Below are positions 1 through 17,492 of a stretch of DNA of 64,000 nucleotides, in pieces (the stretch's first letter is position 1; every line of letters begins with the position of its first letter). Under the pieces are notes generated by a model. That model was not told where the DNA came from. It saw only the letters and a list, made by a program, of their open reading frames with translations, and searched no databases. The translations under genes and the position numbers were made by a program. This DNA is from a virus: positions 1-64,000 of IMG/VR virus record IMGVR_UViG_3300028615_000137; one strand, given 5' to 3'.

Positions 1-244
1 TCGACAAGAACTTATCGAAAAGTATGAAAAGGGGGAAAGGGATTTTGAAGGGGTAGATCTCAGCTATGCGGATCTGGGTTACCTCAATCTCAAGGATGCA
101 AACTTCGACTGGGCAAATCTTGAAGGTGCAAATCTCGAGAATGCGGAGTTCAGATACACAAAACTTGAAAATGCGAATCTCAAGAATGCAGATCTTGAAG
201 GTGCCGATCTATACTGTGCGAACCTCGAAGGTGCAAATCGTTAG
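1..244 (+). CDS. Pentapeptide-repeat protein, 5' end outside window
   Basis: Manual translation from nt 2: RQELIEKYEKGERDFEGVDLSYADL...ANLEGANR*, stop TAG 242-244; same leader as neighbours. Confidence 0.9.
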   Translation, partial: RQELIEKYEKGERDFEGVDLSYADLGYLNLKDANFDWANLEGANLENAEFRYTKLENANLKNADLEGADLYCANLEGANR

Positions 245-372
245 CTGAACAATTACACTATAGGTGTAACAAATTTTAGACATTTTTCTCAGCTTGAGCT
301 TGCACAGTGGTTCCACTCTGCTAGTCTATATGTTGAGGCAAGGGAGAAAACAAAATGGAAAAGAAAATGACT
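239..372 (+). repeat. Intergenic cassette repeat type I, copy A (palindrome + promoter + RBS + start)
   Basis: cgttagctgaacaattacactataggtgtaa...agcttgagcttgcacag...gctagtctatatgttgaggcaagggagaaaacaaaatggaaaagaaaatgac; recurs at ~757, ~1380 and inverted at ~4936-5069. Confidence 0.95.
300..327 (+). promoter_or_regulatory. Putative sigma-70 promoter with extended -10
   Basis: TTGCAC-N16-TAGTCT preceded by TGn; same at 815-842, 1443-1470 and (-) 4980-5007. Confidence 0.6.
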
Positions 373-777
373 CGACAAGAAGTTGTACAAAAGTGTGAAA
401 ATGGGGAAATAGATTTCCGAGGCGCAGATCTCAGTGGACAGGATCTAAGCGGACTGGATCTAAGCGGAGTGGATCTCGAAGGTGTAAATCTCAAGAATGC
501 AGATCTAGAAGGGGCAGATCTCAGGGACGCAAATCTCGAGAATGCGGTTCTCAGGGACGCAAATCTCAAGGGGGCAAATCTCAGTTTTGCAAATCTCAGC
601 GGTGTAAATCTAAGGGGTGCAGATCTCGAAGGGACAATCCTTCAGGATGCGGATCTCAGGGACGCAAATCTTGAAGGTGCAATCCTTCAAGATGCGGATC
701 TCATCTGTGCAAACCTTGAAGGTGCAAACCTTGAAGGTGCGGTTATCTATCTTGGTAACAGGAAAATTACACTATAG
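355..777 (+). CDS. Pentapeptide-repeat protein
   Basis: Leader MEKKMTRQEVVQKCENGEIDF followed by A[DN]Lxx repeats; RBS agggag. Confidence 0.95.
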   Translation: MEKKMTRQEVVQKCENGEIDFRGADLSGQDLSGLDLSGVDLEGVNLKNADLEGADLRDANLENAVLRDANLKGANLSFANLSGVNLRGADLEGTILQDADLRDANLEGAILQDADLICANLEGANLEGAVIYLGNRKITL

Positions 778-876
778 GTGTAAACAATTTTTAGACAATT
801 TTCTTAGCTTGAGCTTGCACAGCGGTCAAAGGCTGCTAGTCTATATGTTGAGGCAAGGGAGAAAGCAAAATGGAAA
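757..876 (+). repeat. Intergenic cassette repeat type I, copy B
   Basis: ttacactataggtgtaa 767-783, promoter motif 815-842, RBS. Confidence 0.95.
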
Positions 877-1046
877 ACAACAGCATCATCGGCACGGTAG
901 ACTTCGAAGCGCTCAATCGCGAGATCACGAACTTCGAGCTTGCAAATGCGCAGTGGGAGGGTGATGGCGAACAGAACGAAACGGAAACTGAAATTTTGTT
1001 CACCATCGAGTTCAAGAGCCGCTTACGACACTCGGATAGAGGCTAA
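870..1046 (+). CDS. Small acidic hypothetical protein (58 aa) in a cassette slot
   Basis: ATG 870 directly after the conserved RBS; MENNSIIGTVDFEALNREITNFELANAQWEGDGEQNETETEILFTIEFKSRLRHSDRG*. Confidence 0.7.
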   Translation: MENNSIIGTVDFEALNREITNFELANAQWEGDGEQNETETEILFTIEFKSRLRHSDRG

Positions 1047-1064
1047 AGCCGAGCTAGAAGGTAG

Positions 1065-1385
1065 AGCAGCGGACTAGATCTCGGTGGGGTAGATCTCAAG
1101 GGTGCAAACTTTGAAGGTTCACTTTTAGATGGCGCAAATCTCAAGTGTGCAAATCTCAACCTTGCAGATCTCAGGTATGTAAATCTCGAGAATGCAGTTC
1201 TCAGGGACGCAAATCTTAGGGGAGCAGATCTCAGCGGTGCAAATCTCAAGGGTGCAGAAATCAGGGATGCAAACCTTGAAGGTGCAAATCTTGAATATGC
1301 AGATCTCAAGAATGCAGATCTCAGGTATGTAAATCTCAGCGGTGTAAAACTCAAGGATGCAAATCTAGAGGGTGCTGTCCGTTAG
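1065..1385 (+). pseudogene. Headless pentapeptide-repeat gene (open frame, no leader or start)
   Basis: [18 protein letters not shown]...ANLEGAVR*; in-frame TAG at 1062-1064 upstream, no ATG. Confidence 0.8.
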
Positions 1386-1511
1386 CTGAACAATTACACT
1401 ATAGGTGTAACAAATTTTTTAGACAATTTTCTTAGCTTGAGCTTGCACAGCGGTCAAAGGCTGCTAGTCTATATGCTGAGACGAGGAGAAAATTTTATGA
1501 AGAAAATGACT
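1380..1511 (+). repeat. Intergenic cassette repeat type I, copy C
   Basis: cgttagctgaacaattacactataggtgtaa (palindrome 1394-1410), promoter motif 1443-1470. Confidence 0.95.
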
Positions 1512-1772
1512 AGGCAAGAAATTATCGAAAAGTATGAAAAGGGGGAACGAGATTTCCAAGAGGTAGATCTTAGTGGAGTAAATCTAAGAGGACTGGATCT
1601 AAGCGGAGTAAATCTTGAAAATGCGGATCTCAAGAATGCAGATCTAGAAGGGGCAAATCTCAAGAATGCAGATCTAGAAGGGGCAAATCTCAGGTATGCA
1701 AATCTCAGGTATGCAAATCTTGAAGGCGCAAATCTACAAGATGCAAATCTTGAAGGGGTAATCTGGCGGTAA
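1497..1772 (+). CDS. Pentapeptide-repeat protein
   Basis: MKKMTRQEIIEKYEKGERDF + repeats; start moved to ATG 1497 after RBS aggag. Confidence 0.93.
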   Translation: MKKMTRQEIIEKYEKGERDFQEVDLSGVNLRGLDLSGVNLENADLKNADLEGANLKNADLEGANLRYANLRYANLEGANLQDANLEGVIWR

Positions 1773-1810
1773 CAGGAAAATTACACTATAGGTGGAAAAT
1801 GAGTAAGTAA

Positions 1811-2032
1811 ATGACAAGACTAGAAATTATAGAAAAGTATGAAAGCGGGGAACGAGATTTTCGATGGAAAAATCTAAGCGGAGTAGATCTAAGCGGAGTA
1901 GATCTAAGCGGAGTAAATCTGGAAGGTGCAGATCTAGAAGGGGCAAATCTCGAGAATGTGGTTCTCAAGGGTGCAGATCTAAGTGGGGCAGATCTCAGGT
2001 ATGCAAATCTAGAGGGGGTAATCTGGCGCTAG
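1811..2032 (+). CDS. Pentapeptide-repeat protein (short)
   Basis: MTRLEIIEKYESGERDF + repeats; same C-terminus (ANLEGVIWR) as previous gene. Confidence 0.9.
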   Translation: MTRLEIIEKYESGERDFRWKNLSGVDLSGVDLSGVNLEGADLEGANLENVVLKGADLSGADLRYANLEGVIWR

Positions 2033-2206
2033 TGGGGTCTCGCCTGGGTGGCAACTAGGGGATACTTGTAAGGAGGCTTAGACGGGCGTATGGAAGGCTT
2101 CACGCACCTGTTAGAGCGTCTTGGCAGGGGAGAATAACGCTTGAGTATACAATCGGGAAAACAAGGGGTGTGACATTTTGACAATTTGTGTGGTAGAGTT
2201 GGTGAC

Positions 2207-3007
2207 ATGAAGGGTCAACGAATGACGCCAAAAGAGTACGAGTTGTGGCTCCAGGCGTTCCGCGAATGTGGGGAAAATTGGTCGCGTGTAGCCCGTTGGA
2301 TCCAAAAGAGAGTGCCGGGTCGTGAGGCGACAACTGCTCAAGTTGTCAAGAGGGGTTACCAAAAAGGTTGGCCAAATCACGATGGTGATTTTCCCCCTAT
2401 TTTCGAAGTGTTAGCGGCTGAGACTGCGAAAGCGGAAGCCGAGATAGCGAAAAAAACTCGGCTAGCGATCGTGGAAGATGCGATAGCGGGCGATGCCGAC
2501 GCCATTGCACTCGCGCATGACTATCAGGTCCAAGCCAAAGCAGAAGAAGGCATTTTAGTAGGAAAAGCAAGGAAAAACTTGCTTGAAGTCATGGATTCGT
2601 CAAAAAATCTGCTAACTGGAATAAACCGATTGTCTGCAAGTGTTGGAAAACATTTGGAAAGAATGGAAATCGATTCCGATGATCCCGAAGGCGCCACAAA
2701 TGCGGTTCAGCTATTGTGGAGAGCGTCGACGGCCCTTCGAGCCGCTACGGCGGCAACAAAAGACGTCCTAGAGTGCGAGCGGCTTGTGATGAATAGGCCC
2801 ACTACAGTGGTCGAGCACCGGGTTGGAGCCAGTGCAACCACTGAAGAAACGCTCAGGCATATCCAAAAGAACTACGAGAATTCGATCCGAATGCAGGAAC
2901 GGATAGCCAGACGGGAGCGCTTGGAAGCCGAACTCGAAGAAAAACATAAGAAAACCTACATTGATGTAGAAGTGCTAGACACTGGAAAGCTTGAAGAAAG
3001 CGAATAG
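2207..3007 (+). CDS. Probable terminase small subunit
   Basis: N-terminal HTH-like segment, long helical middle, C-terminal ERLVMNRPTTVVEHRV...YIDVEV resembling TerS; start uncertain (2186/2207/2222). Confidence 0.55.
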   Translation: MKGQRMTPKEYELWLQAFRECGENWSRVARWIQKRVPGREATTAQVVKRGYQKGWPNHDGDFPPIFEVLAAETAKAEAEIAKKTRLAIVEDAIAGDADAIALAHDYQVQAKAEEGILVGKARKNLLEVMDSSKNLLTGINRLSASVGKHLERMEIDSDDPEGATNAVQLLWRASTALRAATAATKDVLECERLVMNRPTTVVEHRVGASATTEETLRHIQKNYENSIRMQERIARRERLEAELEEKHKKTYIDVEVLDTGKLEESE

Positions 3008-3049
3008 TTTCCAAAAGTCGAAAAAATTTGTAAACCTTGAGTTAAATCT

Positions 3050-3085
3050 TTGGCTTAGCTTGTGCATTAGCACATCATGTGCCAA
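3050..3085. promoter_or_regulatory. Imperfect palindrome of two facing sigma-54 (-24/-12)-like motifs
   Basis: + TTGGCTTAGCTTGTGCA 3050-3066; - TTGGCACATGATGTGCT 3085-3069; both GG-N10-GC. Confidence 0.45.
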
Positions 3086-3315
3086 ATTGTCTAAACTGTG
3101 GCAAAAAAGTCACGCAATTGCGCACCATGTAAGAAAGCACTTATGTGCAAATCTGCCATAGTACTTTGCCCATTTGTAGTACCATTACCCTACAAGTATA
3201 TCGATCCTCCCTAGGCTTATATACACCCAACTATGGCAGAAATGCACATCTTACCATACATGTATGGCCATTATGGGCCCTGGTAGGTGCATGTGTGCAC
3301 ATCCGGGCTTGATAC

Positions 3316-3352
3316 TTGGCACGAGCTTGTGCATTAGCAAGTTGTGTGCCAA
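3316..3352. promoter_or_regulatory. Second palindrome; sigma-54 consensus on - strand
   Basis: - strand TTGGCACACAACTTGCT (3352-3336) fits YTGGCACRNNNNTTGCW; shares agcttgtgcattagca with the first copy. Confidence 0.55.
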
Positions 3353-3708
3353 TTAGGTAACACCTGAAAAATGATCAAAAAAACAATTGCCTCCAGAACA
3401 GCGCCTGCTAGGATATAGGTATGACTAACGCAGATATTCATGTGTATCAGACTAGGGACGGCTGCTATAGGTGTAGGGTCACATATGGTAACACCACTGT
3501 GTACACTGGTAAACACATCACCCTATATGCGGCTGTGTGGAATGCTGCTAAGCTAGCAGAGAAGGGAAAGAATGGATAATATGGAAACTATGAAAATGAC
3601 TTGGGGTGCAAGAGTAGTGCCATTCTTGTACTAATGATACCTAACCCCGTAGCTCACCCCAAGCGGCGCTTGATAGCTTGTGAGATGTGAACGCCTGGTG
3701 ATGAAGTG

Positions 3709-3724
3709 TGTTTCACGTGGAACA
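3709..3724. promoter_or_regulatory. parS: parS site (chromosomal ParB-binding palindrome)
   Basis: TGTTTCACGTGGAACA; reverse complement TGTTCCACGTGAAACA equals the canonical bacterial parS 16-mer; lies in non-coding DNA. Confidence 0.8.
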
Positions 3725-3729
3725 TTCAG

Positions 3730-3793
3730 GGTAATCACTTACACTATCGTACAGTGTAGGTAATCACCCACACTGTGGAACAAGGTGGGTAAC
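3730..3793 (+). repeat. Degenerate 29-bp tandem repeat
   Basis: ggtaatcac at 3730 and 3759, ggtaac at 3788; units contain internal dyads. Confidence 0.6.
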
Positions 3794-3880
3794 TGTAGGT
3801 TAACGTAAGGTAATAACTTTTTTCGCCTACAGTTTCCCCGAATTGGGCTCACTCGTTTGCCCAGTGCAGGACCACACAGA

Positions 3881-3956
3881 TTTTTTTACAATTTTCTGAC
3901 AAAATTTGCTAATATACCACTAAAATCAGCTACAGAGATTTGATATTTTTTTTTTT
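3881..3956 (-). repeat. Intergenic repeat type II, copy 1
   Basis: tttttttacaattttctgacaaaatttgctaatataccactaaaatcagctacagagatttgatattttt identical at 4541-4615; first ~40 bp also at ~5605-5645. Confidence 0.95.
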
Positions 3957-3964
3957 ACAATTTT

Positions 3965-4006
3965 CTGAGAAAAATGTCTAAAAATTGTTTACACCTATAG
4001 TGTAAA
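3965..4006 (-). repeat. Partial type I repeat (palindrome part)
   Basis: ttacacctatagtgtaa 3989-4005 plus ctgagaaaaatgtctaaaaattgt. Confidence 0.85.
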
Positions 4007-4011
4007 TATCC

Positions 4012-4512
4012 TTAGCTATGGATGGTACCATTGAGATTTGCACCTTCTAGATCTGCCCCACTTAGATTTGCATGCTGAAGATCTGCAAACCTGAGATCTG
4101 CCCATTTGAGATCTGCCCATTTGAGATCCGCACCCTTGAGATTTGCGCCTTTGAGTTCTGCAAAGCTGAAATTTGCACCCCGAAGATCTGCACCTTCTAG
4201 ATCTGCACAGTAGAGAACCACACCCTTGAGAACTGCAAACCTGAGATCTACCCTTTCAAGATCTGCCCCACTGAGATTTGCACCCCTGAGAACTGCACCC
4301 TTGAGATTTGCCCCTTCGAGTTCTGCATTCTTGAGAACTGCAAACCTGAGTTCTGCACAGTAGAGATTTGCATGCTGAAGATTTGCTGTTCTAAGATCCA
4401 CTCCACTTAGATCTACTCCACTTAGATCTACTCCGCTGAGATCTGCACCTCGGAAATCTCTTTCCCCATTTTCATACTTTTCTATTAATTCTTCTCTTGT
4501 CATTTTCTTCAT
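4012..4512 (-). CDS. Pentapeptide-repeat protein
   Basis: MKKMTREELIEKYENGERDF + repeats. Confidence 0.95.
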   Translation of the reverse strand: MKKMTREELIEKYENGERDFRGADLSGVDLSGVDLSGVDLRTANLQHANLYCAELRFAVLKNAELEGANLKGAVLRGANLSGADLERVDLRFAVLKGVVLYCADLEGADLRGANFSFAELKGANLKGADLKWADLKWADLRFADLQHANLSGADLEGANLNGTIHS

Positions 4513-4540
4513 AAAATTTTCTACCTATATTGTAATTTTT

Positions 4541-4615
4541 TTTTTTTACAATTTTCTGACAAAATTTGCTAATATACCACTAAAATCAGCTACAGAGATT
4601 TGATATTTTTTTTTT
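4541..4615 (-). repeat. Intergenic repeat type II, copy 2
   Basis: Identical to 3881-3955, 660 bp away. Confidence 0.95.
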
Positions 4616-4952
4616 ATTCGACCTGGATAAACTTTTTGCCATAAATTATTACACGTACCCCTTCAAGGTTTGCATTCTTGAGAACTGCCCTTTCGAGATC
4701 TGCATTTTCGAGATCTGCATACCTGAGAACTGCAAAGCTGAGATCTGCATTTTCGAGATCTGCATACCTGAGAACTGCAAAGCTGAGATCTGCCCCTTCA
4801 AGGTTTGCGTCCCTTAGTTCTGCCCCACTTAGATTTGCGTTCCTTAGTTCTGCACCCTTGAGATCTACTCCACTAAGATCTGCGCCTCGGAAATCTCTTT
4901 CCCCATTTTCATACTTTTCTATTAATTCTTCTCTTGTCATTTTCTTTTCCAT
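4614..4952 (-). CDS. Pentapeptide-repeat protein
   Basis: MEKKMTREELIEKYENGERDF + repeats; internal 45-bp duplication (ADLSFAVLRYADLEN x2). Confidence 0.95.
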   Translation of the reverse strand: MEKKMTREELIEKYENGERDFRGADLSGVDLKGAELRNANLSGAELRDANLEGADLSFAVLRYADLENADLSFAVLRYADLENADLERAVLKNANLEGVRVIIYGKKFIQVE

Positions 4953-5069
4953 TTTGTTTTCTCCCTTGCCTCAACATATAGACTAGCAGCCTTTGACCGC
5001 TGTGCAAGCTCAAGCTCAAAAAATTGTCTAAAAAATTGTTTACACCTATAGTGTAATTGTTCAGCTAAC
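4936..5069 (-). repeat. Intergenic cassette repeat type I, inverted copy D
   Basis: Reverse complement of 239-372/1380-1511, with palindrome 5040-5056 and promoter motif 4980-5007. Confidence 0.95.
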
Positions 5070-5577
5070 GGAAGGCACCTTCTAGGTTTGCACCATTGAG
5101 ATTTGCACCTTCTAGATTCGCCCTTTCGAGATCTGCACCTTCAAGGTTCGCACCCTTGAGATTTGAATAGCTGAGGTCTGCAAACCTGAGATCTGCACCC
5201 TCTAGAACTGCCCCACTGAGATCTGCTCCCGCTAGATCTGCACCCCTAAGATCTGCATACCAGAGATCTGCATATTCAAGATCTGCATTCTTGAGATTTG
5301 CAAAGCCGAGTTTTGCATTCTCGAGATTTGCATATTCAAGATTCGCATGTCTGAGTTCTGCACCCTTGAGATTTGCATTCTTGAGATTTGCATTCTTGAG
5401 ATTTGCAAAGCCGAGTTTTGCATTCTCGAGGTTTGCAAATAGGAGATTTACTCTGCTTAGATCCAGTCCGCTGAGAACCAGTTCGCTTAGATCTACTCCA
5501 CTAAGATCTGCGCCTCGGAAATCTCTTTCCCCATTTTCATACTTTTGCACAACTTCTTCTCTAGTCATTTTCTTCAT
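5065..5577 (-). CDS. Pentapeptide-repeat protein
   Basis: MKKMTREEVVQKYENGERDF + repeats. Confidence 0.95.
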   Translation of the reverse strand: MKKMTREEVVQKYENGERDFRGADLSGVDLSELVLSGLDLSRVNLLFANLENAKLGFANLKNANLKNANLKGAELRHANLEYANLENAKLGFANLKNADLEYADLWYADLRGADLAGADLSGAVLEGADLRFADLSYSNLKGANLEGADLERANLEGANLNGANLEGAFR

Positions 5578-5653
5578 AAAATTTTCTACCTATATTGTAA
5601 TTTTTTTTTTTACAATTTTCTGACAAAATTTGCTAATATACCACTTTCTTTCC

Positions 5654-6166
5654 TTAGACCAGTGGTAGCCCCATAGTTTGTTGATCGCGGAAGCCGCCAT
5701 CAAGATTTGCGAAACTGAGATCTGCTCTTTTAAAAACTGCCCCTCTGAAATCTGCACCCCTAAGATCTGCATACATAATATTTGCATCCCTGAGATTTGC
5801 ATATTCAAGATTCGCATGTCTGAGTTCTGCACAATTTAGGTTTGCATACCTGAGGTATGCACGGCTAAGTTTTGCACCTTCTAGATTTGCATATTCTAGA
5901 TCTGCACGGTAGAGATTTGCACCTTCTAGGAATGTACCTTCAAGATTTACACGGTAGAGATCTGCAAGGTTGAGATTTGCACACTTGAGAACCGCATTGC
6001 TAAGATTTGCACACTTGAGAACCGCATTGCTAAGATCTGCATAGCTGAGATTTGCTGATCTAAGATCCAGTCCTCTTAGATTTACTCCACTAAGATCTAC
6101 TTCTTGGAAATCTCTTTCCCCATTTTCGTACTTTTGTACAACTTCTTTTCTAGTCATTTTCTTCAT
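5654..6166 (-). CDS. Pentapeptide-repeat protein
   Basis: MKKMTRKEVVQKYENGERDF + repeats. Confidence 0.95.
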   Translation of the reverse strand: MKKMTRKEVVQKYENGERDFQEVDLSGVNLRGLDLRSANLSYADLSNAVLKCANLSNAVLKCANLNLADLYRVNLEGTFLEGANLYRADLEYANLEGAKLSRAYLRYANLNCAELRHANLEYANLRDANIMYADLRGADFRGAVFKRADLSFANLDGGFRDQQTMGLPLV

Positions 6167-6178
6167 AAAATTTTACTT

Positions 6179-6373
6179 TCACCCTTGCTTTTCTTCGTAA
6201 AGTGGCAGCATAGGATACGGACATAGTTCTGCTAGTGTCCTGCTGCTAAGACTCAAGCCAAATCCACAACTTTTCTTCAATGCCTCTGGATGTGCGCAAT
6301 ATGGTCCATCTGGGTCGCAACCACCAAATTGACAAGTGTAACATTTACGTTCAACTTTATTCATTTCCTTCAC
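6179..6373 (-). CDS. Small Cys-rich hypothetical protein
   Basis: CxxC...C...C; coupled to neighbour. Confidence 0.65.
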   Translation of the reverse strand: MKEMNKVERKCYTCQFGGCDPDGPYCAHPEALKKSCGFGLSLSSRTLAELCPYPMLPLYEEKQG

Positions 6374-6786
6374 CGATCGAATTTGGTCTCTATCCCTATC
6401 AACAGCTTATTTCTATAATCGTCCAAAGCTTCTTGAGGAGTATCAAAACATTCACTAACCACGTCGTCAGAGTCGAAGACTACATATTTATTAGAATAGG
6501 TAGAATTAAGAAACAAATCGAAATGTTCGATTTGCCAATGTTCATATAATTCGTCCCAAATGAAAGTAATCTCTTTTCCATACCAAGTAAGAGTAATATT
6601 TTCTTGGGATTCATCCCCCTTATTCGTAGGTTCCGAATTATTCCAAACGATATCTAGAAACTTCTCCATTTCTGCTTGACTAAAAATAAGTACATTATTG
6701 GGCAATCCGCAGACTATGTCAAAAACTTTATGCTTTGAATCTTCAAAAATATAATAGAGTTTTTCACCTATTTGTATCGGTTTCAT
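6370..6786 (-). CDS. Hypothetical protein
   Basis: ORF with ATGA-type overlaps on both sides. Confidence 0.7.
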   Translation of the reverse strand: MKPIQIGEKLYYIFEDSKHKVFDIVCGLPNNVLIFSQAEMEKFLDIVWNNSEPTNKGDESQENITLTWYGKEITFIWDELYEHWQIEHFDLFLNSTYSNKYVVFDSDDVVSECFDTPQEALDDYRNKLLIGIETKFDR

Positions 6787-7091
6787 TGCAATCCTAGATC
6801 CTCACTATCATTTATATAATGTAGCGGATTATAGCCGCTGTCCAAGCTTATATTTAAATTTTTTGCCATATTTAGAAAATCTTGATCGTCTGTCAGAATT
6901 TTGAACATATCTTCTTCTAATTCAAAATACACATCGGAATGTTTACCAAGAATTTCACCAAAATAAACTACTGTACATTTTCCAATTTCTTCTTGAAGTT
7001 TGCTCCACTCGTTTTCGTTTAGAACAAACCTTCCACTTACGACACCAAGGCGACCATAATCTACAAACATTTCAATAAAATAATTTTTCAT
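6783..7091 (-). CDS. Hypothetical phage protein (acidic)
   Basis: ORF with VYFGEILGKHS motif; coupled. Confidence 0.7.
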   Translation of the reverse strand: MKNYFIEMFVDYGRLGVVSGRFVLNENEWSKLQEEIGKCTVVYFGEILGKHSDVYFELEEDMFKILTDDQDFLNMAKNLNISLDSGYNPLHYINDSEDLGLQ

Positions 7092-7264
7092 TTTAAAAGT
7101 CTTTCTAAAGATTTGGTAATCGAATCCATTCTTTTTACATTACATTCAAAGCACCAGAATGGGGACCACCGGGTTCCGGCCGGATTATTACATTCAATAG
7201 TAATGCATGTCTTACCTGTATGATATTTCTTACTATTACCTTCATGTTTAGGATCGTTATACAT
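7088..7264 (-). CDS. Small Cys-rich hypothetical protein (58 aa)
   Basis: Manual: MYNDPKHEGNSKKYHTGKTCITIECNNPAGTRWSPFWCFECNVKRMDSITKSLERLLK*; RBS ggagg. Confidence 0.65.
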   Translation of the reverse strand: MYNDPKHEGNSKKYHTGKTCITIECNNPAGTRWSPFWCFECNVKRMDSITKSLERLLK

Positions 7265-7342
7265 TCTATTTTCTTTCCTCCTCTTTTGTACAATTGTCTA
7301 AAACTCCACTTGTCAATCTCACTTCCCTATTTATAAAATTAG

Positions 7343-7415
7343 TGGGTCGTACAAGAATCGAACTTGTAACCGCCCGGTTAAAAGCCGGATGCTCTGCCAA
7401 TTGAGCTAACGACCC
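7343..7415 (-). tRNA. tRNA-Lys(UUU), CCA not encoded
   Basis: GGGTCGTTAGCTCAATTGGCAGAGCA-TCCGG CTTTTAA CCGGG-CGGTTACAAGTTCGATTCTTGTACGACCCA; full cloverleaf. Confidence 0.93.
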
Positions 7416-7421
7416 TAAAAT

Positions 7422-7616
7422 TCATCCTTCTTCATTGTATCCTACCGTTCTAAACTTATATAGCCACAAGCACTGTTTGCATTGTAGCTCTTCTTTCATA
7501 CTGTGCAACTCTTTTAGAGTCCTAACAGCGCGTCTACCTTCCGTCGAACGGCTTCGATAACAAAATAGCGTCTTGCCGTCTTCAGTCAGATGTATCTTTT
7601 TTACAGAATTTCTCAT
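7422..7616 (-). CDS. Hypothetical protein
   Basis: ORF track; H...C...CxxC. Confidence 0.55.
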   Translation of the reverse strand: MRNSVKKIHLTEDGKTLFCYRSRSTEGRRAVRTLKELHSMKEELQCKQCLWLYKFRTVGYNEEG

Positions 7617-7741
7617 ACAAAAACTTCAAAATCTCTACTTTTCCTAGTTGTTCGTAATATCTAGGTGTGCATCTATCTGAACCGTCACTTATCTTATCCA
7701 AGTCGTCTAAATGTGCACAATACATTTCTTCTAGCTTTGTT

Positions 7742-8344
7742 TCAATGCTCATTATTTACTTTCTTTACGAAATTTTTAATGTCGTCATAACTATTGGGAT
7801 ACATAATTATTTTAGTATCATCCGGCAACAACAATTCTAATGAATAATAGTTTTTATCATTCATTCCAAAAAAATCTATTACAAATTCTGTATCTTCTTT
7901 GAAAACGTTCGAATAATAATCATTTACTATTGTTACTAAATCGCCAACGTTAAAATCTTCTTCGGATTCTTGCATCCAAGGTTTAAAAGTTTTCAAATAC
8001 TCGATTGATGGAAAAATTCCTTCGAATCTAAAAGCTTTATCGTCTATGTAAATATCAGCAAAAGGCTTACAAAATGGAAAATCTATTCTATCAATTTGAC
8101 TTGGTAATACACCTTGGCGACCTAACCATCTTTGCATTTGCAAAACGTCCCTTGATTCCACATTTCTACACGAGAAGATATTGACTTCAAAATCGTCGCT
8201 ATCAACGAGCTTAATCAAAAAATCGATGGCATCTTGTACTGGAGGATCTGTAATAGGTACCCCCGGCCCTTCATATCCAGATTTAAAGCTATTTAAAACT
8301 CCGTCGAAGTCTATACTGACTATTGTTCTTCGTTTACTATTCAT
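7742..8344 (-). CDS. HAD-superfamily phosphatase (nucleotidase-like)
   Basis: Motif I IDFDGV, IFSCR, KPFADIYIDDKA. Confidence 0.8.
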   Translation of the reverse strand: MNSKRRTIVSIDFDGVLNSFKSGYEGPGVPITDPPVQDAIDFLIKLVDSDDFEVNIFSCRNVESRDVLQMQRWLGRQGVLPSQIDRIDFPFCKPFADIYIDDKAFRFEGIFPSIEYLKTFKPWMQESEEDFNVGDLVTIVNDYYSNVFKEDTEFVIDFFGMNDKNYYSLELLLPDDTKIIMYPNSYDDIKNFVKKVNNEH

Positions 8345-8419
8345 TGTTTAACTCTTATTTAAGATTTAGTAATAGATTATTCATATCTTTTTTATTCATA
8401 TTATTTCTCCTAAAATTAG

Positions 8420-8493
8420 CAGAACGTATAGGACTCGAACCTATAACCTACAGCTTAGAAGGCTGTTGCTCTATCCCGTTGAGCTAACGTTCC
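8420..8493 (-). tRNA. tRNA-Arg(UCU), CCA not encoded
   Basis: GGAACGTTAGCTCAACGGGATAGAGCA-ACAGC CTTCTAA GCTGT-AGGTTATAGGTTCGAGTCCTATACGTTCTG. Confidence 0.93.
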
Positions 8494-9009: not shown

Positions 9010-9331
9010 CTTTAACCAAGAATTTTTGGTTTATATGTTTTCTTATCACAGATTTAACTAAAAGCAAGGCATAATTCATAGCTTCTTTATCATTTTTCTG
9101 ACCCATAAGAAACTCGGAAACTGCTGTAGTAACCAATCGCTTATAAAGTTCTGGAACATCTTTTTCAAAGATTAGGTAGATACCGTTGTCGTTATCAAAC
9201 CAAGCGATTGATATTTCGGGAATTTCTCTATCTGGATTTGTTACTTCGCTATAACAAGTTCCTAATTTCGAGTCCCGAATTATTGGAGCTCCAACGTAAT
9301 ATAGTGTAGGAGTTTTTTCTTCACTCGACAT
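8969..9331 (-). CDS. Hypothetical protein
   Basis: ORF track. Confidence 0.6.
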   Translation of the reverse strand: MSSEEKTPTLYYVGAPIIRDSKLGTCYSEVTNPDREIPEISIAWFDNDNGIYLIFEKDVPELYKRLVTTAVSEFLMGQKNDKEAMNYALLLVKSVIRKHINQKFLVKGEEGEWVFNNGNT

Positions 9332-9989
9332 ATTTAATATCCGAACGAATTAGCTTTGAATCATTTGCTATCGAATACAAAAAGTAATTTAAACAACCGG
9401 AACAAATTTCATACCCTTGATTTTGATATTTAAACATACGTCGAAGAGTAGATAAACCGAAAGTAATTTCGTTAATTACCATTCGCTTTCTGCCCACGTC
9501 CCAAAGTGTATAATCGCCCGTATGTAGCCTAAAGTCCGTAGGACCTTCCTTACTCAAAGCAAACTGACACAACGTGAAATCGAAAGTGTCCAACAAATTT
9601 TCTACGCAATCATAAAACCCAATGTTTATAAGTTGAATTTTATATTCTTTATCATAAAATGTTTCCGCTTCGTTTCCAATTAAAAATGTTGGTTCCTTTG
9701 AATGGGTAAATTTATAGGTAATTGCATGAGCATTTTCTTCAATCAATTCATGGCCCATTTTTTCAATGTTTTTCTTTAATTCATCAAATTGAACAGAATT
9801 ATGGCAGAAAAAGTCGATATCGCCTTTATCTAGCGGTTGTTTCGTAAGAAGACGTCTTAACAATCCTCCCGCTATCCAAGGACCTTCGTCGATTTTTCCC
9901 ACGTGTGGAAGATTTTCCAATAAATAGTACAATTCTACAAGATCAATATCACTTCTAGCACAAATTTCACTTAGATTATATGTCTGCAT
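9321..9989 (-). CDS. Nucleotidyltransferase (CCA-adding/poly(A) polymerase head-domain-like)
   Basis: WIAGGLLRR...GDIDFF and LLDTFDFTLCQFA motifs. Confidence 0.75.
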   Translation of the reverse strand: MQTYNLSEICARSDIDLVELYYLLENLPHVGKIDEGPWIAGGLLRRLLTKQPLDKGDIDFFCHNSVQFDELKKNIEKMGHELIEENAHAITYKFTHSKEPTFLIGNEAETFYDKEYKIQLINIGFYDCVENLLDTFDFTLCQFALSKEGPTDFRLHTGDYTLWDVGRKRMVINEITFGLSTLRRMFKYQNQGYEICSGCLNYFLYSIANDSKLIRSDIKYVE

Positions 9990-10313: not shown

Positions 10314-10537
10314 TTACCAGGCTTAGATTGAAAGATAGCAGAACCGTCTGGATGTACAATAGAAATCAACTGCGGTTTAACATTTTCTTTAAAGTCTTGT
10401 TGCATTCTTTCTTCAGCTAATTCTTTAACACTGGGATAAGCATGCATTGCTTCTTCTGATAACAAAATGATTCTGCGCATATTTGACCAGGCATAAATCC
10501 CGTTACGTATTTCCCATATTGCTTTGTAATATTTCAT
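10295..10537 (-). CDS. Hypothetical protein
   Basis: ORF track, ATGA overlap. Confidence 0.6.
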   Translation of the reverse strand: MKYYKAIWEIRNGIYAWSNMRRIILLSEEAMHAYPSVKELAEERMQQDFKENVKPQLISIVHPDGSAIFQSKPGKCKGCQ

Positions 10538-11556
10538 TCGATCAAATGGGGGTGAGATTCCCGCGTGCCATTAGTACTTACTTTGACAAATTTAGCATTT
10601 TCTCTAAGTTGCGCTAAATCCGAGGCTCCGCAGTAGGACATTCCAGACCTGACACCGTCCATAATCGAATAGAGTACTTTACTTACTTTACCCTTATAAG
10701 GAACCAAAGTTTCAGCCCCTTCAATATGCTCAATCTCTGAATTGGCTTGTTCTTTGGAAGCATAAGAAGCACTTCCCCTATATATTTTGTACAATTTTCC
10801 ATTATGCTTTATTACATTTCCAGGAGTTTCGTCTGTACCAGCCAGCATCGAGCCTAACATAACCGCATTGGCACCCGCTGCTAGGCATTTTACGATGTCG
10901 CCAGAACTCCTAATGCCCCCATCGGCTATTATTCCGACTTCATGAGTATCTGTATATCGCCTTTCTTGGGCAATATCCAGGACACTTTGCAATGTAGGAT
11001 ATCCACATCCTGTTTGAATGCGAGTCGTACAAAGACTACCGCCACCGATACCTACTTTTACAGCAATTCTACTAAAATCGCTTTCTTCTATAGATTTAAT
11101 CAAAAATTTATAGGCTTCTTTAGTAGCAATATTGCCTACGATTACGTTTATTTTTGGAAAATTTTGTAGGATTTCTTTCAGAACTTTCAACGTTCGATTG
11201 CTATGGGCATGCGCAACGTCGATGCAAACCAACTTCACAGTATCACAACTATGAATTCTATCTATCCAATCATAGTCAATGCCCACTGAAATTCCGCACG
11301 TGCACATTGTCACTTGTCTTGCTTGTTGATCAACACTATTAAATCGATGAATAATGCCCAATCCACCGTGTGCATGCATCGTGCTTGCCATTTTCCATTC
11401 GCAAATAGTAGCCATGTTTGCGGCAATAATTGGCATCGTTACATGTATGTTGCCAATTCTCGAACTGGTATCTATATTCTTTCGACTTTCTATATCACTA
11501 CGGTTAGGAACCAATAGAACATCGTCGAATGTTACAGCTTCTGTCACACATACCAT
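10534..11556 (-). CDS. guaB: IMP dehydrogenase/GMP reductase family (no CBS domains)
   Basis: [53 protein letters not shown]; IMPDH versus GMPR not resolved. Confidence 0.88.
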
Positions 11557-16390: not shown

Positions 16391-16681
16391 ATGGAATTTA
16401 GTAAAGCCGAAAAGGCGGAATTAAAAAGGCAAACTTTAGAATGCCAAATTCTAATAGCTTTACTACCATTCAAAAAGGCAGAACACTTTCATAGCGACTT
16501 TGCTAAATGGGTAAGTGATAAATACAGGGAAGCATTTTTACAAGACGAAAAAATCTCTACGAAAGTGCCAAGAGTTTTGCGAAGCGTTAATACGAAGAAA
16601 TTTTATGTTCAAGTCGAATTCGTACACGAAAACGATAGAGAATGTCGAACAGATCAATTCTCTAAAGCTGCTCAATCCTGA
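16391..16681 (+). CDS. Hypothetical protein
   Basis: ORF track; overlaps next ORF. Confidence 0.5.
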   Translation: MEFSKAEKAELKRQTLECQILIALLPFKKAEHFHSDFAKWVSDKYREAFLQDEKISTKVPRVLRSVNTKKFYVQVEFVHENDRECRTDQFSKAAQS

Positions 16682-17492
16682 GAATTCCGATTTAAGAATA
16701 AAGCTAGAAAATTATACAAAAAGTATAGCCAATAATCTAGCAGTATTCTCAGTTTTTTGGAAGAAAAACGGCGGGAAAAATGTTTGGTTGCTCAACCCAG
16801 CCTGGAAAAACTTCCACAAGGATTATTGGGGGGATAATTTAGTAGTATTTGCAGTAGTTTACAGTCAACAAGAAATAAATCTAGCCTTGAAAGAAGGTTA
16901 CACTTCTGTTATAAATTATTCTTTAATTCCATCTAAGGAAAATTTATCTTTTGAAGAGGCTTTAGATTTGGCTAGAAAATGTTCCTTGTGCAAAGAAAGC
17001 GGTCACGACCGCAGACGTTGCGAGTTACGCAACAAAGTAGAAAAGAATTCTCCAGACCCATGGCACGACTTGGAATGGAACGAGCATTTGGATGCTATGA
17101 AAATAGTCGCCGAAAATCCAAATGGTATGACTCTTGAAGAAATTGGAGCTACTTTGGGCATCACCAGAGAGCGTGTAAGACAAATTGAATATCAAGCGCT
17201 AGAAAAGTTGATCGTAGACGGGTTTGGTTATGATGTATCTGTAATGAATTCTATAAAAAAGAAGTACGAAAGTGGCAAAATTCCCGATACTGTCATGAGA
17301 GATTTACTAGACTGCACACAAGAAGATATTTCAACTAGATTAGACGGTATCGTGTCCCATTCTATAGACGGATTTTTCTTCAGATTTTTAGAATGCGAAA
17401 AATGTCAAGAAACTTTTGTTCGACTTTCTGGTCGCCAGAGATATTGCGAGATTTGTCGGCCAGAAATTAGAGACCGCAGGAAAATTTCATGA
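16515..17492 (+). CDS. Sigma-70 region-4 HTH protein with zinc-binding motifs
   Basis: MTLEEIGATLGITRERVRQIEYQALEKL; CSLCKESGHDRRRC; CEKC...CEIC; start uncertain (possibly ATG ~16605). Confidence 0.75.
   Translation: MINTGKHFYKTKKSLRKCQEFCEALIRRNFMFKSNSYTKTIENVEQINSLKLLNPENSDLRIKLENYTKSIANNLAVFSVFWKKNGGKNVWLLNPAWKNFHKDYWGDNLVVFAVVYSQQEINLALKEGYTSVINYSLIPSKENLSFEEALDLARKCSLCKESGHDRRRCELRNKVEKNSPDPWHDLEWNEHLDAMKIVAENPNGMTLEEIGATLGITRERVRQIEYQALEKLIVDGFGYDVSVMNSIKKKYESGKIPDTVMRDLLDCTQEDISTRLDGIVSHSIDGFFFRFLECEKCQETFVRLSGRQRYCEICRPEIRDRRKIS

What the first reader, a model, noticed from the sequence alone, without database searches (positions are those of the whole stretch)
1..6166. Inverted two-armed array of at least nine pentapeptide-repeat cassettes around a terS/parS core: candidate phage diversification system
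Seen: five PRP frames on + (1-2032) and four on - (4012-6166) converge on a 2-kb core. Intact copies share the leader MKKMTR.E...KYE.GERDF but differ in repeat number (73-170 aa) and in the variable residues of the A[DN]Lxx units. They are separated by near-identical intergenic units, and the ~130-bp type I unit occurs in both orientations (239, 757, 1380 on +; 4936-5069 on -). Established: PRPs form right-handed beta-helices, and MfpA/Qnr act as DNA mimics that bind gyrase. Inference: a separately promoted, recombination-shuffled arsenal of DNA-mimic-like proteins (gyrase modulators or inhibitors of host DNA-sensing defence). Crossover between the inverted arms would flip the core, and crossovers inside coding repeats would create chimeric PRPs without gene loss. 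No recombinase is visible in the window.
Basis: partly seen in the sequence, partly recalled or inferred. Interest (0 to 1): 0.9.

Follow-up and report, generated by a model that had tools for sequence, protein, structure and literature searches.

The report
Shuffled pentapeptide-repeat gene family in phage
A 106-kb uncultivated contractile-tailed phage, probably of a filamentous cyanobacterium, carries about 15 copies of a small rod-shaped repeat protein, each behind a reusable promoter-like cassette; the copies have swapped pieces by ordinary homologous recombination, there is no sign of a dedicated inversion or diversification machine, and the proteins' function is unknown.

Summary
The window holds nine pentapeptide-repeat (PRP) frames: seven intact, one cut by the window edge, one leaderless remnant. 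The whole 106-kb record holds 15, in clusters at 92, 97, 104 and 106 kb and at 0-2 and 4-6 kb. Each follows a TTACA[AC]TATAGG motif. The ~125-nt type I unit also fronts two unrelated genes.

The family is mosaic: perfect tracts of 145, 75, 74 and 70 nt sit in divergent surroundings, multi-unit shared tracts far exceed a unit-shuffle null, and five unit copies give 8 splits where a tree allows 2.

The proteins are confident beta-helices, closest to cyanobacterial Np275/Np276. They are not close to MfpA or Qnr, and lack a dimerisation helix and Qnr loops.

The genome has no serine or tyrosine recombinase and no reverse transcriptase. It does encode UvsX-like and SbcCD-like recombination proteins. 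The best reading is a birth-and-death accessory gene family shuffled by general recombination through portable regulatory cassettes, like PeSLs of T4-type phages.

A programmed invertible system is unsupported. parS is confirmed; terS is only a lead. Both contig ends lie inside the 145-nt repeat, so closure and local copy order are uncertain. This scan has noted multi-copy phage PRP families before on other DNA.

The parts
1..244 (+). 3' part of a PRP gene that spans the record junction (genome 106242 -> 244; 86 aa, pI 4.5 if the circle closure is right)
   Evidence: Window bases 1-92 belong to a 145-nt tract identical to genome 104034-104178.
253..354 (+). Type I intergenic unit: TTACACTATAGGTGTAA palindrome, TTGCAC-16-TAGTCT promoter-like stretch, GGGAG ribosome-binding site
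355..777 (+). PRP gene, 140 aa, pI 4.2, C-cap IYLGNRKITL
767..869 (+). Type I unit. It is 99% identical in its first half to the copy at genome 106139, and here it fronts a non-PRP ORF.
870..1046 (+). Unrelated 58-aa ORF placed directly behind a type I unit
   Evidence: homology to the PRP copies ends at the start codon
1065..1385 (+). Leaderless PRP body (106 codons) in the same frame as the 870 ORF but separated from it by two stops, with no usable start: a decayed copy
1394..1496 (+). Type I unit
1497..1772 (+). PRP gene, 91 aa, pI 4.7
1781..1810 (+). Short unit (TTACACTATAGGTGG...). The usual MSKK start is interrupted by a stop (MSK*), so translation must begin at the MTR methionine.
1811..2032 (+). 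PRP gene, 73 aa, pI 4.4
2207..3007 (+). 266-aa all-helical protein (small N-terminal three-helix bundle plus long helices). It belongs to an unnamed family of about 97 distant homologues. TerS-like only by language-model look-alikes.
3709..3724 (.). Perfect chromosomal-type parS (TGTTCCACGTGAAACA on the - strand), unique in the genome. GGTAATCAC-like repeats and a second GTGGAACA half-site follow at 3729-3817.
3871..4011 (-). Orphan cassette heads downstream of the last right-arm PRP: a truncated type I unit (motif at 4004) and a 75-nt spacer identical to 4541-4615
4012..4512 (-). PRP gene, 166 aa, pI 5.1. AF2 model: N-cap helix plus an uninterrupted beta-helix (pLDDT 97).
4513..4613 (-). Short unit (A-tract + TTACAATATAGGTAGAAA) upstream of the 4512 copy
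4614..4952 (-). PRP gene, 112 aa, pI 4.7, with an internal 45-nt in-register duplication
4953..5072 (-). Type I unit in inverted orientation. It holds the longest perfect inverted matches to the left arm: 59 nt with 806-864 and 54 nt with 318-371.
5065..5577 (-). PRP gene, 170 aa, pI 4.8, with an internal 105-nt-offset duplication
5578..5653 (-). Short unit upstream of the 5577 copy
5654..6166 (-). PRP gene, 170 aa, pI 6.6. It is the most clearly mosaic copy: successive segments are 93-96% identical to four different paralogues, in the left arm, the right arm and at 92.6 kb.

Best explanation
This is a lineage-specific, birth-and-death multigene family of small cytoplasmic pentapeptide-repeat beta-helix proteins. 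It sits in the accessory part of an uncultivated 106-kb myovirus whose host is probably a filamentous cyanobacterium.

There are 12 intact and at least 2 decayed copies. Each has an N-cap helix and 2 to 7.5 coils, and none has a C-terminal domain. Each copy sits behind a portable regulatory cassette: a TTACA[AC]TATAGG motif, with or without a ~100-nt promoter-like and ribosome-binding-site stretch. The same cassette also fronts unrelated small genes.

The cassettes and the conserved N-cap coding sequence supply stretches of perfect identity. The phage's own general homologous-recombination proteins (UvsX-like, SbcCD-like) can use these to duplicate, delete, convert and occasionally invert segments. 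In-register slippage or unequal exchange between 15-nt units changes coil number. The outcome over evolutionary time is a mosaic repertoire that differs in length and in outward-facing residues.

Shown: family membership, fold, mosaicism, cassette structure, absence of dedicated recombinases, presence of general recombination genes.

Inferred: the cassettes are promoters; recombination is still going on; the proteins act early on host targets, either as host take-over or anti-defence factors or as binders or mimics of nucleic-acid-handling proteins.
For: Family and fold:
- PF00805 hits.
- 15 frames mapped.
- AF2 pLDDT 97.4 with an N-cap helix at residues 6-14 and a continuous beta-helix.
- Foldseek top hits are Np275/Np276 (46% identity) and designed solenoids derived from it, with TM up to 0.86.

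Cassettes:
- 12 of 13 genome-wide TTACA[AC]TATAGG hits lie at PRP cassette boundaries and point toward the PRP.
- Type I units are 85-99% identical to each other.
- The same unit precedes the non-PRP ORFs at 870 and at genome 101357.

Recombination:
- Perfect tracts of 145 nt (104034-104178 = 106206->92), 75, 74 and 70 nt sit in otherwise divergent contexts.
- Intragenic duplications occur at offsets of 15, 30, 45 and 105 nt.
- The nearest paralogue switches along each gene.
- 45-nt body windows at >=93% identity number 8, against 0.33 in unit-shuffled controls (maximum 1); at >=89% they number 30 against 5.2.
- 13 informative sites in five homologous unit-plus-leader copies give 8 distinct splits, and 48 of 78 site pairs are incompatible.

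Engine:
- UvsX-like recombinase, SbcD-like and SbcC-like proteins, an exonuclease and helicases are encoded at 74-88 kb.
- No resolvase, tyrosine recombinase or reverse transcriptase is present.

Decay: a frameshifted copy lies at 104 kb, a leaderless copy at 1065, and a nonsense-shortened start at 1811.

Host hint: the nearest solved structure is from Nostoc, and N-cap matches occur in Microcoleus genomes.

Analogy: PeSL cassettes of T4-type phages mediate modular shuffling and mini-circle formation by recombination (PMC2839356).
Against: - No relatives of this phage carrying the array could be found, so turnover between genomes is not observed directly.
- No reads were available, so present-day heterogeneity is unknown.
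- The sigma-70 scan found no enrichment of promoter-like or terminator-like sites in the array, so separate promoters are unproven.
- Both contig ends fall inside the 145-nt perfect repeat. Some apparent 'recent conversion' could therefore be an assembly effect, and copy order near the junction is uncertain.
- The function is entirely inferred. Two copies are not acidic, and there is no PADLOC or other functional match.
Confidence: 0.6

Rival explanations
1. Programmed diversification system. The two inverted arms are substrates of a dedicated shufflon- or invertase-like mechanism that flips the core and makes chimeric PRPs at high frequency within a population.
For: Cassette units occur in both orientations with up to 59 nt of perfect inverted identity and 155 nt at 88%. 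A conserved 17-bp palindromic motif marks every cassette boundary. The paralogues are mosaic.
Against: No serine or tyrosine recombinase and no reverse transcriptase is found anywhere in the 106-kb record, with positive controls ringing. The family is scattered over five clusters across 20 kb and is not bounded by one pair of sites. The short units keep only the left half of the palindrome. Inverting the core would change no promoter-gene relationship that can be recognised. Pseudogenised copies fit slow birth-and-death evolution.
Confidence: 0.07
2. Qnr/MfpA-type topoisomerase modulators. The PRPs bind host DNA gyrase as DNA mimics, either to protect it from host-encoded gyrase poisons or to inhibit it during take-over.
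For: The fold is a right-handed quadrilateral beta-helix. Ten of 12 copies are acidic, with net charge -5 to -13. The phage has no GyrA/ParC-type topoisomerase of its own, so it depends on the host enzyme. From established knowledge, MfpA, Qnr, AlbG and McbG act on gyrase.
Against: Identity to MfpA, Qnr, AlbG and EfsQnr is only 15-29%, and the best matches are Np275/Np276 of unknown function. There is no C-terminal dimerisation helix and no Qnr-type loops in the model. The sizes, down to 2-4 coils (65-100 aa), are far shorter than the 8-10-coil gyrase binders. Two copies are neutral. Fifteen paralogues are hard to explain with one conserved target.
Confidence: 0.12
3. Largely an assembly artefact. 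Short-read assembly through 15-nt-periodic repeats produced spurious copies, chimeric junctions and a false circular closure.
For: Both record ends, and the 91-bp 'direct terminal repeat' used to call the record complete, lie inside a 145-nt tract that is repeated exactly at 104034-104178. The 104-kb copy is frameshifted exactly at the end of that tract. Published long-read work reports that pentapeptide repeats were 26-fold enriched in long-read viral data compared with assembled data sets and attributes this to repeats fragmenting assemblies (PMC9238414).
Against: Copies differ by 12-30% at the DNA level and have distinct lengths and C-caps. All other perfect repeats are 75 nt or shorter, well below usual read lengths. 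12 copies keep open frames and canonical caps. The arms are embedded in unique flanking genes. Only the 104-106 kb junction stretch is really ambiguous.
Confidence: 0.1
4. Terminal first-entry genes. The 266-aa helical protein is the small terminase and the parS/iteron region at 3.0-4.0 kb is the packaging start. The two PRP arms would then be the physical ends of virion DNA and the first genes to enter the cell, as with T7 gene 0.3 or the T5 pre-early genes. This is compatible with the best explanation and would sharpen it.
For: ESM-Atlas look-alikes of the 266-aa protein include several 'terminase small subunit' clusters at 0.91-0.95. The low-confidence model shows an N-terminal three-helix bundle and long helices. 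The only long non-coding stretch, with direct repeats and a unique palindrome, lies next to it. Both arms are transcribed toward it.
Against: There is no Pfam, PHROG or PDB support. TerL lies about 14 kb away. The physical ends are unknown, and the AF2 model has pLDDT 59.
Confidence: 0.15

Closest known systems
Np275/Np276 of Nostoc punctiforme (PDB 2J8K) and other small cyanobacterial PRPs (Rfr23, alr5209)
   Same: It is the best structural and sequence match (46% identity). Both are small cytosolic PRPs with an N-terminal cap helix, canonical A(D/N)LXX units, and no loops or extra domains. Np275 and Np276 are themselves two adjacent small genes.
   Different: Those are cellular genes occurring as a pair. 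Here 15 copies sit in a phage with repeated regulatory cassettes. The function of Np275/276 is also unknown, so the match does not explain mechanism.
PeSL (promoter-early stem-loop) mobile regulatory cassettes of T4-type phages (Arbiol et al. 2010, PMC2839356; Comeau et al. 2014, PMC4122927)
   Same: Short repeated intergenic units combine a promoter-like element and a palindrome. They lie in accessory regions rich in small genes, in front of unrelated ORFs, and recombination between copies explains insertions, deletions and replacements. The phage has T4-like general recombination genes.
   Different: The sequence is unrelated. The promoter and terminator activity of the unit was not tested here. 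Here the cassettes are tied mainly to one expanding gene family instead of to diverse ORFans. Mini-circles and differences between phages could not be examined.
Single or paired PRP genes of sequenced phages (Rheinheimera Barba phages gp045, Caulobacter phage RW gp016, Microcystis phage MaMV-DC ORF31, PhiMa05 ORF104/224)
   Same: These are phage-encoded PF00805 proteins in regions of small unknown genes. In the Barba isolates the matched PRP segment differs in length between near-identical genomes.
   Different: Those genomes carry one or two PRP genes, often longer and with a C-terminal non-repeat domain and a different N-cap. None of the inspected records has an array.
MfpA / Qnr / AlbG / McbG topoisomerase-interacting PRPs
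   Same: Same fold class, and mostly acidic surfaces.
   Different: Identity is 15-29%. There is no dimerisation helix and no loops, the proteins are much shorter, and there are many paralogues. Working like them is possible but untested; membership is not supported.
Site-specific inversion systems (Gin/Cin/Hin invertible segments, R64 shufflon)
   Same: Inverted repeated segments flank a central region, with variant C-terminal or whole-gene alternatives.
   Different: There is no recombinase gene, no single bounded invertible segment, and no promoter-less alternative gene ends.

Membership tests
Pentapeptide-repeat proteins (Pfam PF00805) | Tandem A(D/N)LXX units recognised by the family model | tested here: met
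   E 1e-21 to 1e-60 for all eight tested copies. 210 units give A 78%, N/D 78%, L 94%.
Pentapeptide-repeat proteins (Pfam PF00805) | Right-handed quadrilateral beta-helix, four units per coil | tested here: met
   AF2 pLDDT 97.4 with a strand every five residues. Foldseek probability 1.00 to many solved PRPs.
MfpA/Qnr/AlbG-type gyrase-interacting PRPs | Dimer through a C-terminal helix or tail giving a long DNA-like rod | tested here: not met
   The model ends directly after the last coil with no C-terminal helix. Oligomeric state itself was not modelled.
MfpA/Qnr/AlbG-type gyrase-interacting PRPs | Qnr loops A and B interrupting the helix | tested here: not met
   The strand pattern is uninterrupted from residue 19 to 164.
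MfpA/Qnr/AlbG-type gyrase-interacting PRPs | Strongly electronegative surface | tested here: inconclusive
   10 of 12 copies have pI 4.2-5.1 and net charge -5 to -13; two have net charge 0. The surface potential was not computed.
MfpA/Qnr/AlbG-type gyrase-interacting PRPs | Binding to or protection of DNA gyrase or topoisomerase IV | not testable with these tools
   Needs biochemical assays.
Site-specific DNA inversion systems (invertases, shufflons) | A serine or tyrosine recombinase encoded with the segment | tested here: not met
   PF00239 and PF00589 are absent from the 106-kb record, while the controls ring in 12 and 14 of 14 genomes.
Site-specific DNA inversion systems (invertases, shufflons) | Short specific crossover sites in inverted orientation that bound the invertible DNA | tested here: inconclusive
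   The 17-bp motif occurs in both orientations. It marks every cassette in five clusters and does not form one bounding pair, and the short units keep only half of it.
Diversity-generating retroelements | Reverse transcriptase with template and variable repeats | tested here: not met
   PF00078 is absent.
PeSL-type mobile regulatory cassettes | Repeated intergenic unit with a promoter-like element plus a palindrome, upstream of accessory genes including unrelated ones | tested here: met
   Units are 85-99% identical at nine or more sites, each with a palindrome and TTGCAC-16-TAGTCT, in front of PRPs and two unrelated ORFs. This is met at the sequence level only.
PeSL-type mobile regulatory cassettes | Demonstrated promoter and terminator activity, and recombination between copies seen as differences between related phages or as mini-circles | not testable with these tools
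   No relatives and no reads were available. The consensus scan shows no enrichment. Chimeric junctions and perfect tracts are indirect evidence.
Small terminase (TerS) | Match to a TerS family model, or adjacency to TerL | tested here: not met
   No Pfam, PHROG or PDB match for the protein or for 27 family members. TerL is about 14 kb away. The only support is ESM-Atlas look-alikes at 0.91-0.95.
ParABS partition or condensin-loading site (parS) | 16-bp consensus TGTTNCACGTGAAACA | tested here: met
   A perfect match lies at 3709-3724 and is the only one in the genome at up to 2 mismatches.
ParABS partition or condensin-loading site (parS) | A cognate ParB | tested here: not met
   No ParB_N is present in the phage record. 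A host ParB could not be examined.

The most novel reading that the evidence does not exclude
The 15 PRP genes are a phage 'contingency repertoire'. On this reading they are a recombination-diversified arsenal of small beta-helix decoys or mimics, expressed from portable cassettes at the leading ends of the injected genome. Different copies would neutralise different host nucleic-acid-sensing defences or topoisomerase-targeting toxins, and UvsX-driven cassette exchange would keep generating new alleles within populations.
Probability: 0.15. Interest if true: 0.8.

Novelty: new variant of a known kind. Interest (0 to 1): 0.5.

Why it matters
Pentapeptide-repeat proteins are common in phage genomes, but none has an established function there. 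In the searched literature I found only one or two genes per phage and no description of a multigene family.

A phage that devotes about 5% of its genome to 15 mosaic copies, each behind a reusable expression cassette, is a natural experiment. It shows which residues are free to vary (positions 4 and 5 of each unit, and coil number) and which are not (the N-cap and the inward-facing A/L ladder). That pattern suggests selection for many binding surfaces on one scaffold.

The locus also extends the PeSL idea, that repeated regulatory cassettes act as recombination handles, to a phage outside the T4 group.

It is a caution for virome work too. The record's 'direct terminal repeat' lies inside an internal perfect repeat, so completeness calls based on end overlaps can be created by such gene families.

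Tried and rejected
Searches for relatives:
- Megablast of 1-8000 against named phages found nothing.
- Neither the 266-aa protein nor a distant homologue gave related viral loci.
- The family alignment was too divergent to use as a query.
- The PRP alignment query returned only two unrelated PRPs.
- Capsid relatives share 59% identity, are fragments, and show no PRPs.

Motif scans:
- The 17-bp palindrome gave 17 single hits in viral contigs, which is about chance level for a 17-mer by my own estimate.
- The type I core and the leader pattern gave 0 hits.
- Leader-pattern scans of metagenomes and genomes mostly hit unrelated HTH proteins; only Microcoleus PRPs were relevant.

Protein searches:
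- The whole-PRP search was swamped by generic repeat matches.
- The leader-restricted search showed that the 'leader' is the generic N-cap of a large PRP subfamily (MTxEELLxRYxxGERDF...), not a system-specific signal.

Rejected ideas:
- T7-like promoter. CACTATAGG resembles T7/SP6 promoter cores, but no single-subunit RNA polymerase was found. That search had silent controls, so it is not conclusive. The motif is restricted to the PRP cassettes, so it is not a general phage promoter.
- Fold-back artefact. The arms are only 70-88% identical.
- DGR.
- Defence-system membership (PADLOC).

Inconclusive or not run:
- AF2 of the 266-aa protein without an alignment gave pLDDT 59, so no fold search was run on it.

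Full report
**What the window is.** The window is the first 64 kb of a 106,349-bp IMG/VR viral record that was classed as complete because its ends overlap by 91 bp. The phage has a tail sheath, a portal, a capsid protein and a prohead protease, so it is a myovirus. It has a large terminase at 94.5-96.8 kb. The terminase's PHROG matches are split at residues 56-199 and 341-742, and its best tblastn hits are inteins in other phages' terminases and helicases. It also has a DNA polymerase, a primase, helicases, an exonuclease, a UvsX-like recombinase and SbcCD-like nuclease subunits at 74-88 kb. No named phage is similar at the DNA level. The closest capsid relatives share 59% identity and are fragments.

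**The observation.** On the + strand, 355-777, 1497-1772 and 1811-2032 are intact. The frame at 2-244 is the 3' part of a gene that starts at 106242 of the record. The frame at 1065-1385 is a leaderless body with no usable start and in-frame stops upstream. On the - strand, all four genes (4012-4512, 4614-4952, 5065-5577, 5654-6166) are intact.

The family is larger than reported. Scanning the whole record finds further copies at 92314-92622, 92652-93164, 97288-97485 and 97577-97870, plus a copy at 104070-104539 whose leader and repeats are in different frames. That makes 15 frames: 12 intact and at least 2 decayed. They are spread over about 20 kb and wrap around the terminase gene, many small unknown genes and the record junction.

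The shared leader is invariant or nearly so at M, T, R, E, K, Y, E, G, E, R, D and F. Across 210 in-register units, positions 1-3 are A (78%), N/D (78%) and L (94%), while positions 4 and 5 carry the variation at 3.0 and 2.9 bits.

**The intergenic units.** Every leader-bearing copy is preceded by the motif TTACA[AC]TATAGG. Twelve of its 13 occurrences in the genome lie at PRP cassette boundaries, always pointing toward the PRP. Two forms exist.
- The long type I unit holds the full palindrome TTACACTATAGGTGTAA, then about 100 nt that include TTGCAC-16-TAGTCT and a GGGAG ribosome-binding site. It lies at 253, 767 and 1394 (+), at 5056 (-), and at genome 97475 and 106139. Partial copies lie at 104034 and 101295, and a truncated one at 4004 (-).
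- The short form has only the left half of the palindrome, directly before the start codon.

The type I unit also precedes two non-PRP ORFs, at 870 and at genome 101357, and homology stops at the start codon. The unit therefore behaves as a portable expression cassette. Whether it is a promoter is untested, and a generic sigma-70 and terminator scan shows no enrichment in the array. The resemblance of CACTATAGG to T7/SP6 promoter cores led nowhere. No single-subunit RNA polymerase was detected, although the controls for that search were silent, and the motif does not occur in front of other phage genes.

**Mosaic history.**
- Exact repeats are far longer than the roughly 75% background identity predicts. 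They are 145 nt (104034-104178 = 106206->92), 75 nt (3881-3955 = 4541-4615), 74 nt, 70 nt and many of 40-64 nt. The longest inverted exact matches between the arms are 59 and 54 nt, both inside the type I unit.
- Within genes there are in-register duplications at offsets of 15, 30, 45 and 105 nt. This is direct evidence for how coil number changes.
- Painting each gene by its best-matching paralogue shows the partner switching along the gene. For example, successive segments of 5654-6166 are 93-96% identical to four different copies, in the same arm, the opposite arm and at 92.6 kb.
- Against a null in which the 15-nt units of the target genes are shuffled, body windows of 45 nt at >=93% identity number 8 versus 0.33 expected (maximum 1). 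At >=89% they number 30 versus 5.2.
- In the alignable unit-plus-leader region of five homologous copies, 13 informative sites define 8 different splits, where a tree of five allows 2, and 48 of 78 site pairs fail the four-gamete test.

The family has been shuffled.

**The proteins.** The 166-aa copy folds with very high confidence (pLDDT 97.4) into an N-terminal cap helix (residues 6-14) and an uninterrupted beta-helix. It has no loops and no C-terminal helix.
- Foldseek ranks Np275/Np276 of Nostoc punctiforme first (46% identity), followed by designed solenoids based on it (TM up to 0.86). MfpA, QnrB1, AlbG, AhQnr and EfsQnr follow at 15-29% identity.
- Ten of the 12 intact copies are acidic (pI 4.2-5.1, net -5 to -13) and two are neutral. 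Lengths correspond to about 2 to 7.5 coils.
- A search restricted to the leader shows that the 'leader' is the common N-cap of a large PRP subfamily found in many metagenomes (MTxEELLxRYxxGERDFxGxDLSG). Those proteins often also carry a C-terminal non-repeat domain, which the phage copies lack.
- Exact leader patterns occur in Microcoleus PRPs. Together with the Nostoc match, this points to a filamentous cyanobacterial host, but that is a hint only.

**The core.**
- parS is confirmed. TGTTCCACGTGAAACA at 3709-3724 is a perfect match to the chromosomal consensus and is unique in the genome. No ParB is encoded by the phage. Short GGTAATCAC-like repeats and a second half-site follow it.
- The 'terS' gene (2207-3007, 266 aa) has no Pfam, PHROG or PDB match. 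It found only itself in the word-indexed search, but about 97 distant full-length homologues in the exhaustive HMMER search. None of the ten looked up carries an informative name, and 27 members give nothing in Pfam or PHROGs.
- ESM-Atlas look-alikes of the 266-aa protein include several 'terminase small subunit' clusters at 0.91-0.95. A low-confidence single-sequence model shows a small N-terminal helical bundle and long helices. TerS is therefore a lead, not a finding. The gene lies about 14 kb from TerL.

**Mechanism.** The whole record has no serine recombinase, no tyrosine recombinase and no reverse transcriptase, and the controls for those three searches rang. It does encode a UvsX-like strand-exchange protein and SbcCD-like nuclease subunits.

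The simplest account is that general homologous recombination acts on the repeated cassettes and conserved N-cap coding sequence, with slippage between 15-nt units. This duplicates, deletes, converts and sometimes inverts segments. It is the same logic as the PeSL cassettes of T4-type phages, where recombination between repeated promoter/stem-loop units explains differences between close relatives and produces mini-circles (PMC2839356).

Inversion between the arms is physically possible, given 59 nt of perfect and 155 nt of 88% inverted identity. Nothing suggests that it is programmed or that it switches anything.

**Function.** Function is inferred only. The proteins are small and cytoplasmic, with no extra domain. 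They are mostly acidic, they vary on their outward faces, and they sit among small unknown genes, tRNA genes and auxiliary metabolic genes. This fits accessory host-interaction proteins, either take-over or anti-defence. A specific Qnr/MfpA-like action on gyrase is possible, because the phage has no GyrA/ParC-type enzyme, but two structural hallmarks tested here were not met.

**Caveats.**
- Both record ends, and the 91-bp overlap used to call the record circular and complete, lie inside the 145-nt perfect repeat. The contig break was almost certainly caused by the repeat. Closure, and the order and number of cassettes between 104 kb and 0.3 kb, are inferred.
- Published long-read work reports that pentapeptide repeats were 26-fold enriched in long-read viral data compared with assembled data sets (PMC9238414).
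- No relative with a comparable array could be found, and no reads were available.

**Comparison and novelty.** Among 470 named phage records with PRP hits, those inspected carry one or two PRP genes: Barba phages, Caulobacter phage RW and MaMV-DC, and PhiMa05 from the literature. Multiple hits within a record were pieces of a single gene in the record checked, RW. I found no paper describing a phage PRP multigene family.

Earlier unchecked notes of this scan describe a nine-copy PRP family in another phage and several length-variable PRP pairs. The phenomenon may therefore be recurrent but undescribed.

I class this as a new variant of a known kind. The protein family and the recombination logic are both known. 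The scale (15 copies, about 5% of the genome), the dedicated cassette and the documented mosaicism are unusual.

Noticed in passing
window 3709-3724 (context 3700-3820): A perfect chromosomal-type parS (TGTTCCACGTGAAACA), unique in the 106-kb genome, lies in the only long non-coding stretch. It is followed by three GGTAATCAC-like repeats and a second GTGGAACA half-site. The phage encodes no ParB. It could recruit a host ParB or be part of a packaging or replication site.
   Followed up: partly
L009:6473-8764 (genome 94472-96763): The large terminase has an insert of roughly 140-190 residues. Its PHROG terminase matches are split at residues 56-199 and 341-742, and its best tblastn hits are intein-bearing terminases and helicases of other phages. 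This is consistent with an intein in the ATPase domain.
   Followed up: partly
genome 104034-104178 and 106206-106349 plus window 1-92: A 145-nt perfect repeat contains the record's 91-bp 'direct terminal repeat'. The contig ends are repeat-induced, so the 'complete, circular' call rests on an internal repeat.
   Followed up: yes
window 870-1046; L009:13358-13597 (genome 101357-101596): Two unrelated small ORFs (58 and 79 aa) sit directly behind copies of the type I unit, with homology ending at the start codon. The unit is a portable expression cassette and is not PRP-specific.
   Followed up: partly
L066:298-4399 (genome 84298-88399): A UvsX-like recombinase and SbcD-like and SbcC-like nuclease subunits are encoded in a row, immediately upstream of the PRP-rich accessory region.
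   Followed up: partly
window 16515-17492: A 325-aa protein has a Sigma70 region 4 domain (E 3.7e-11). It may be a phage sigma factor that could direct phage-specific promoters.
   Followed up: no
window 7342-7415, 8419-8493, 10534-11556: tRNA-Lys(UUU), tRNA-Arg(UCU) and an IMPDH/GMP-reductase-family gene (E 1e-96) lie in the leftward accessory block next to the right PRP arm.
   Followed up: no
window 355-777, 4614-4952; L009:4653-5165, 9289-9486, 9578-9871: Five copies end in a Y-[IL]-[GA]-N / IYGKK-type C-cap that resembles the first strand of the C-terminal domain seen in other phage PRPs (for example Barba gp045 '...TIGNQGQIITIQ'). The family may descend from a PRP-plus-domain protein that lost its domain.
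   Followed up: no
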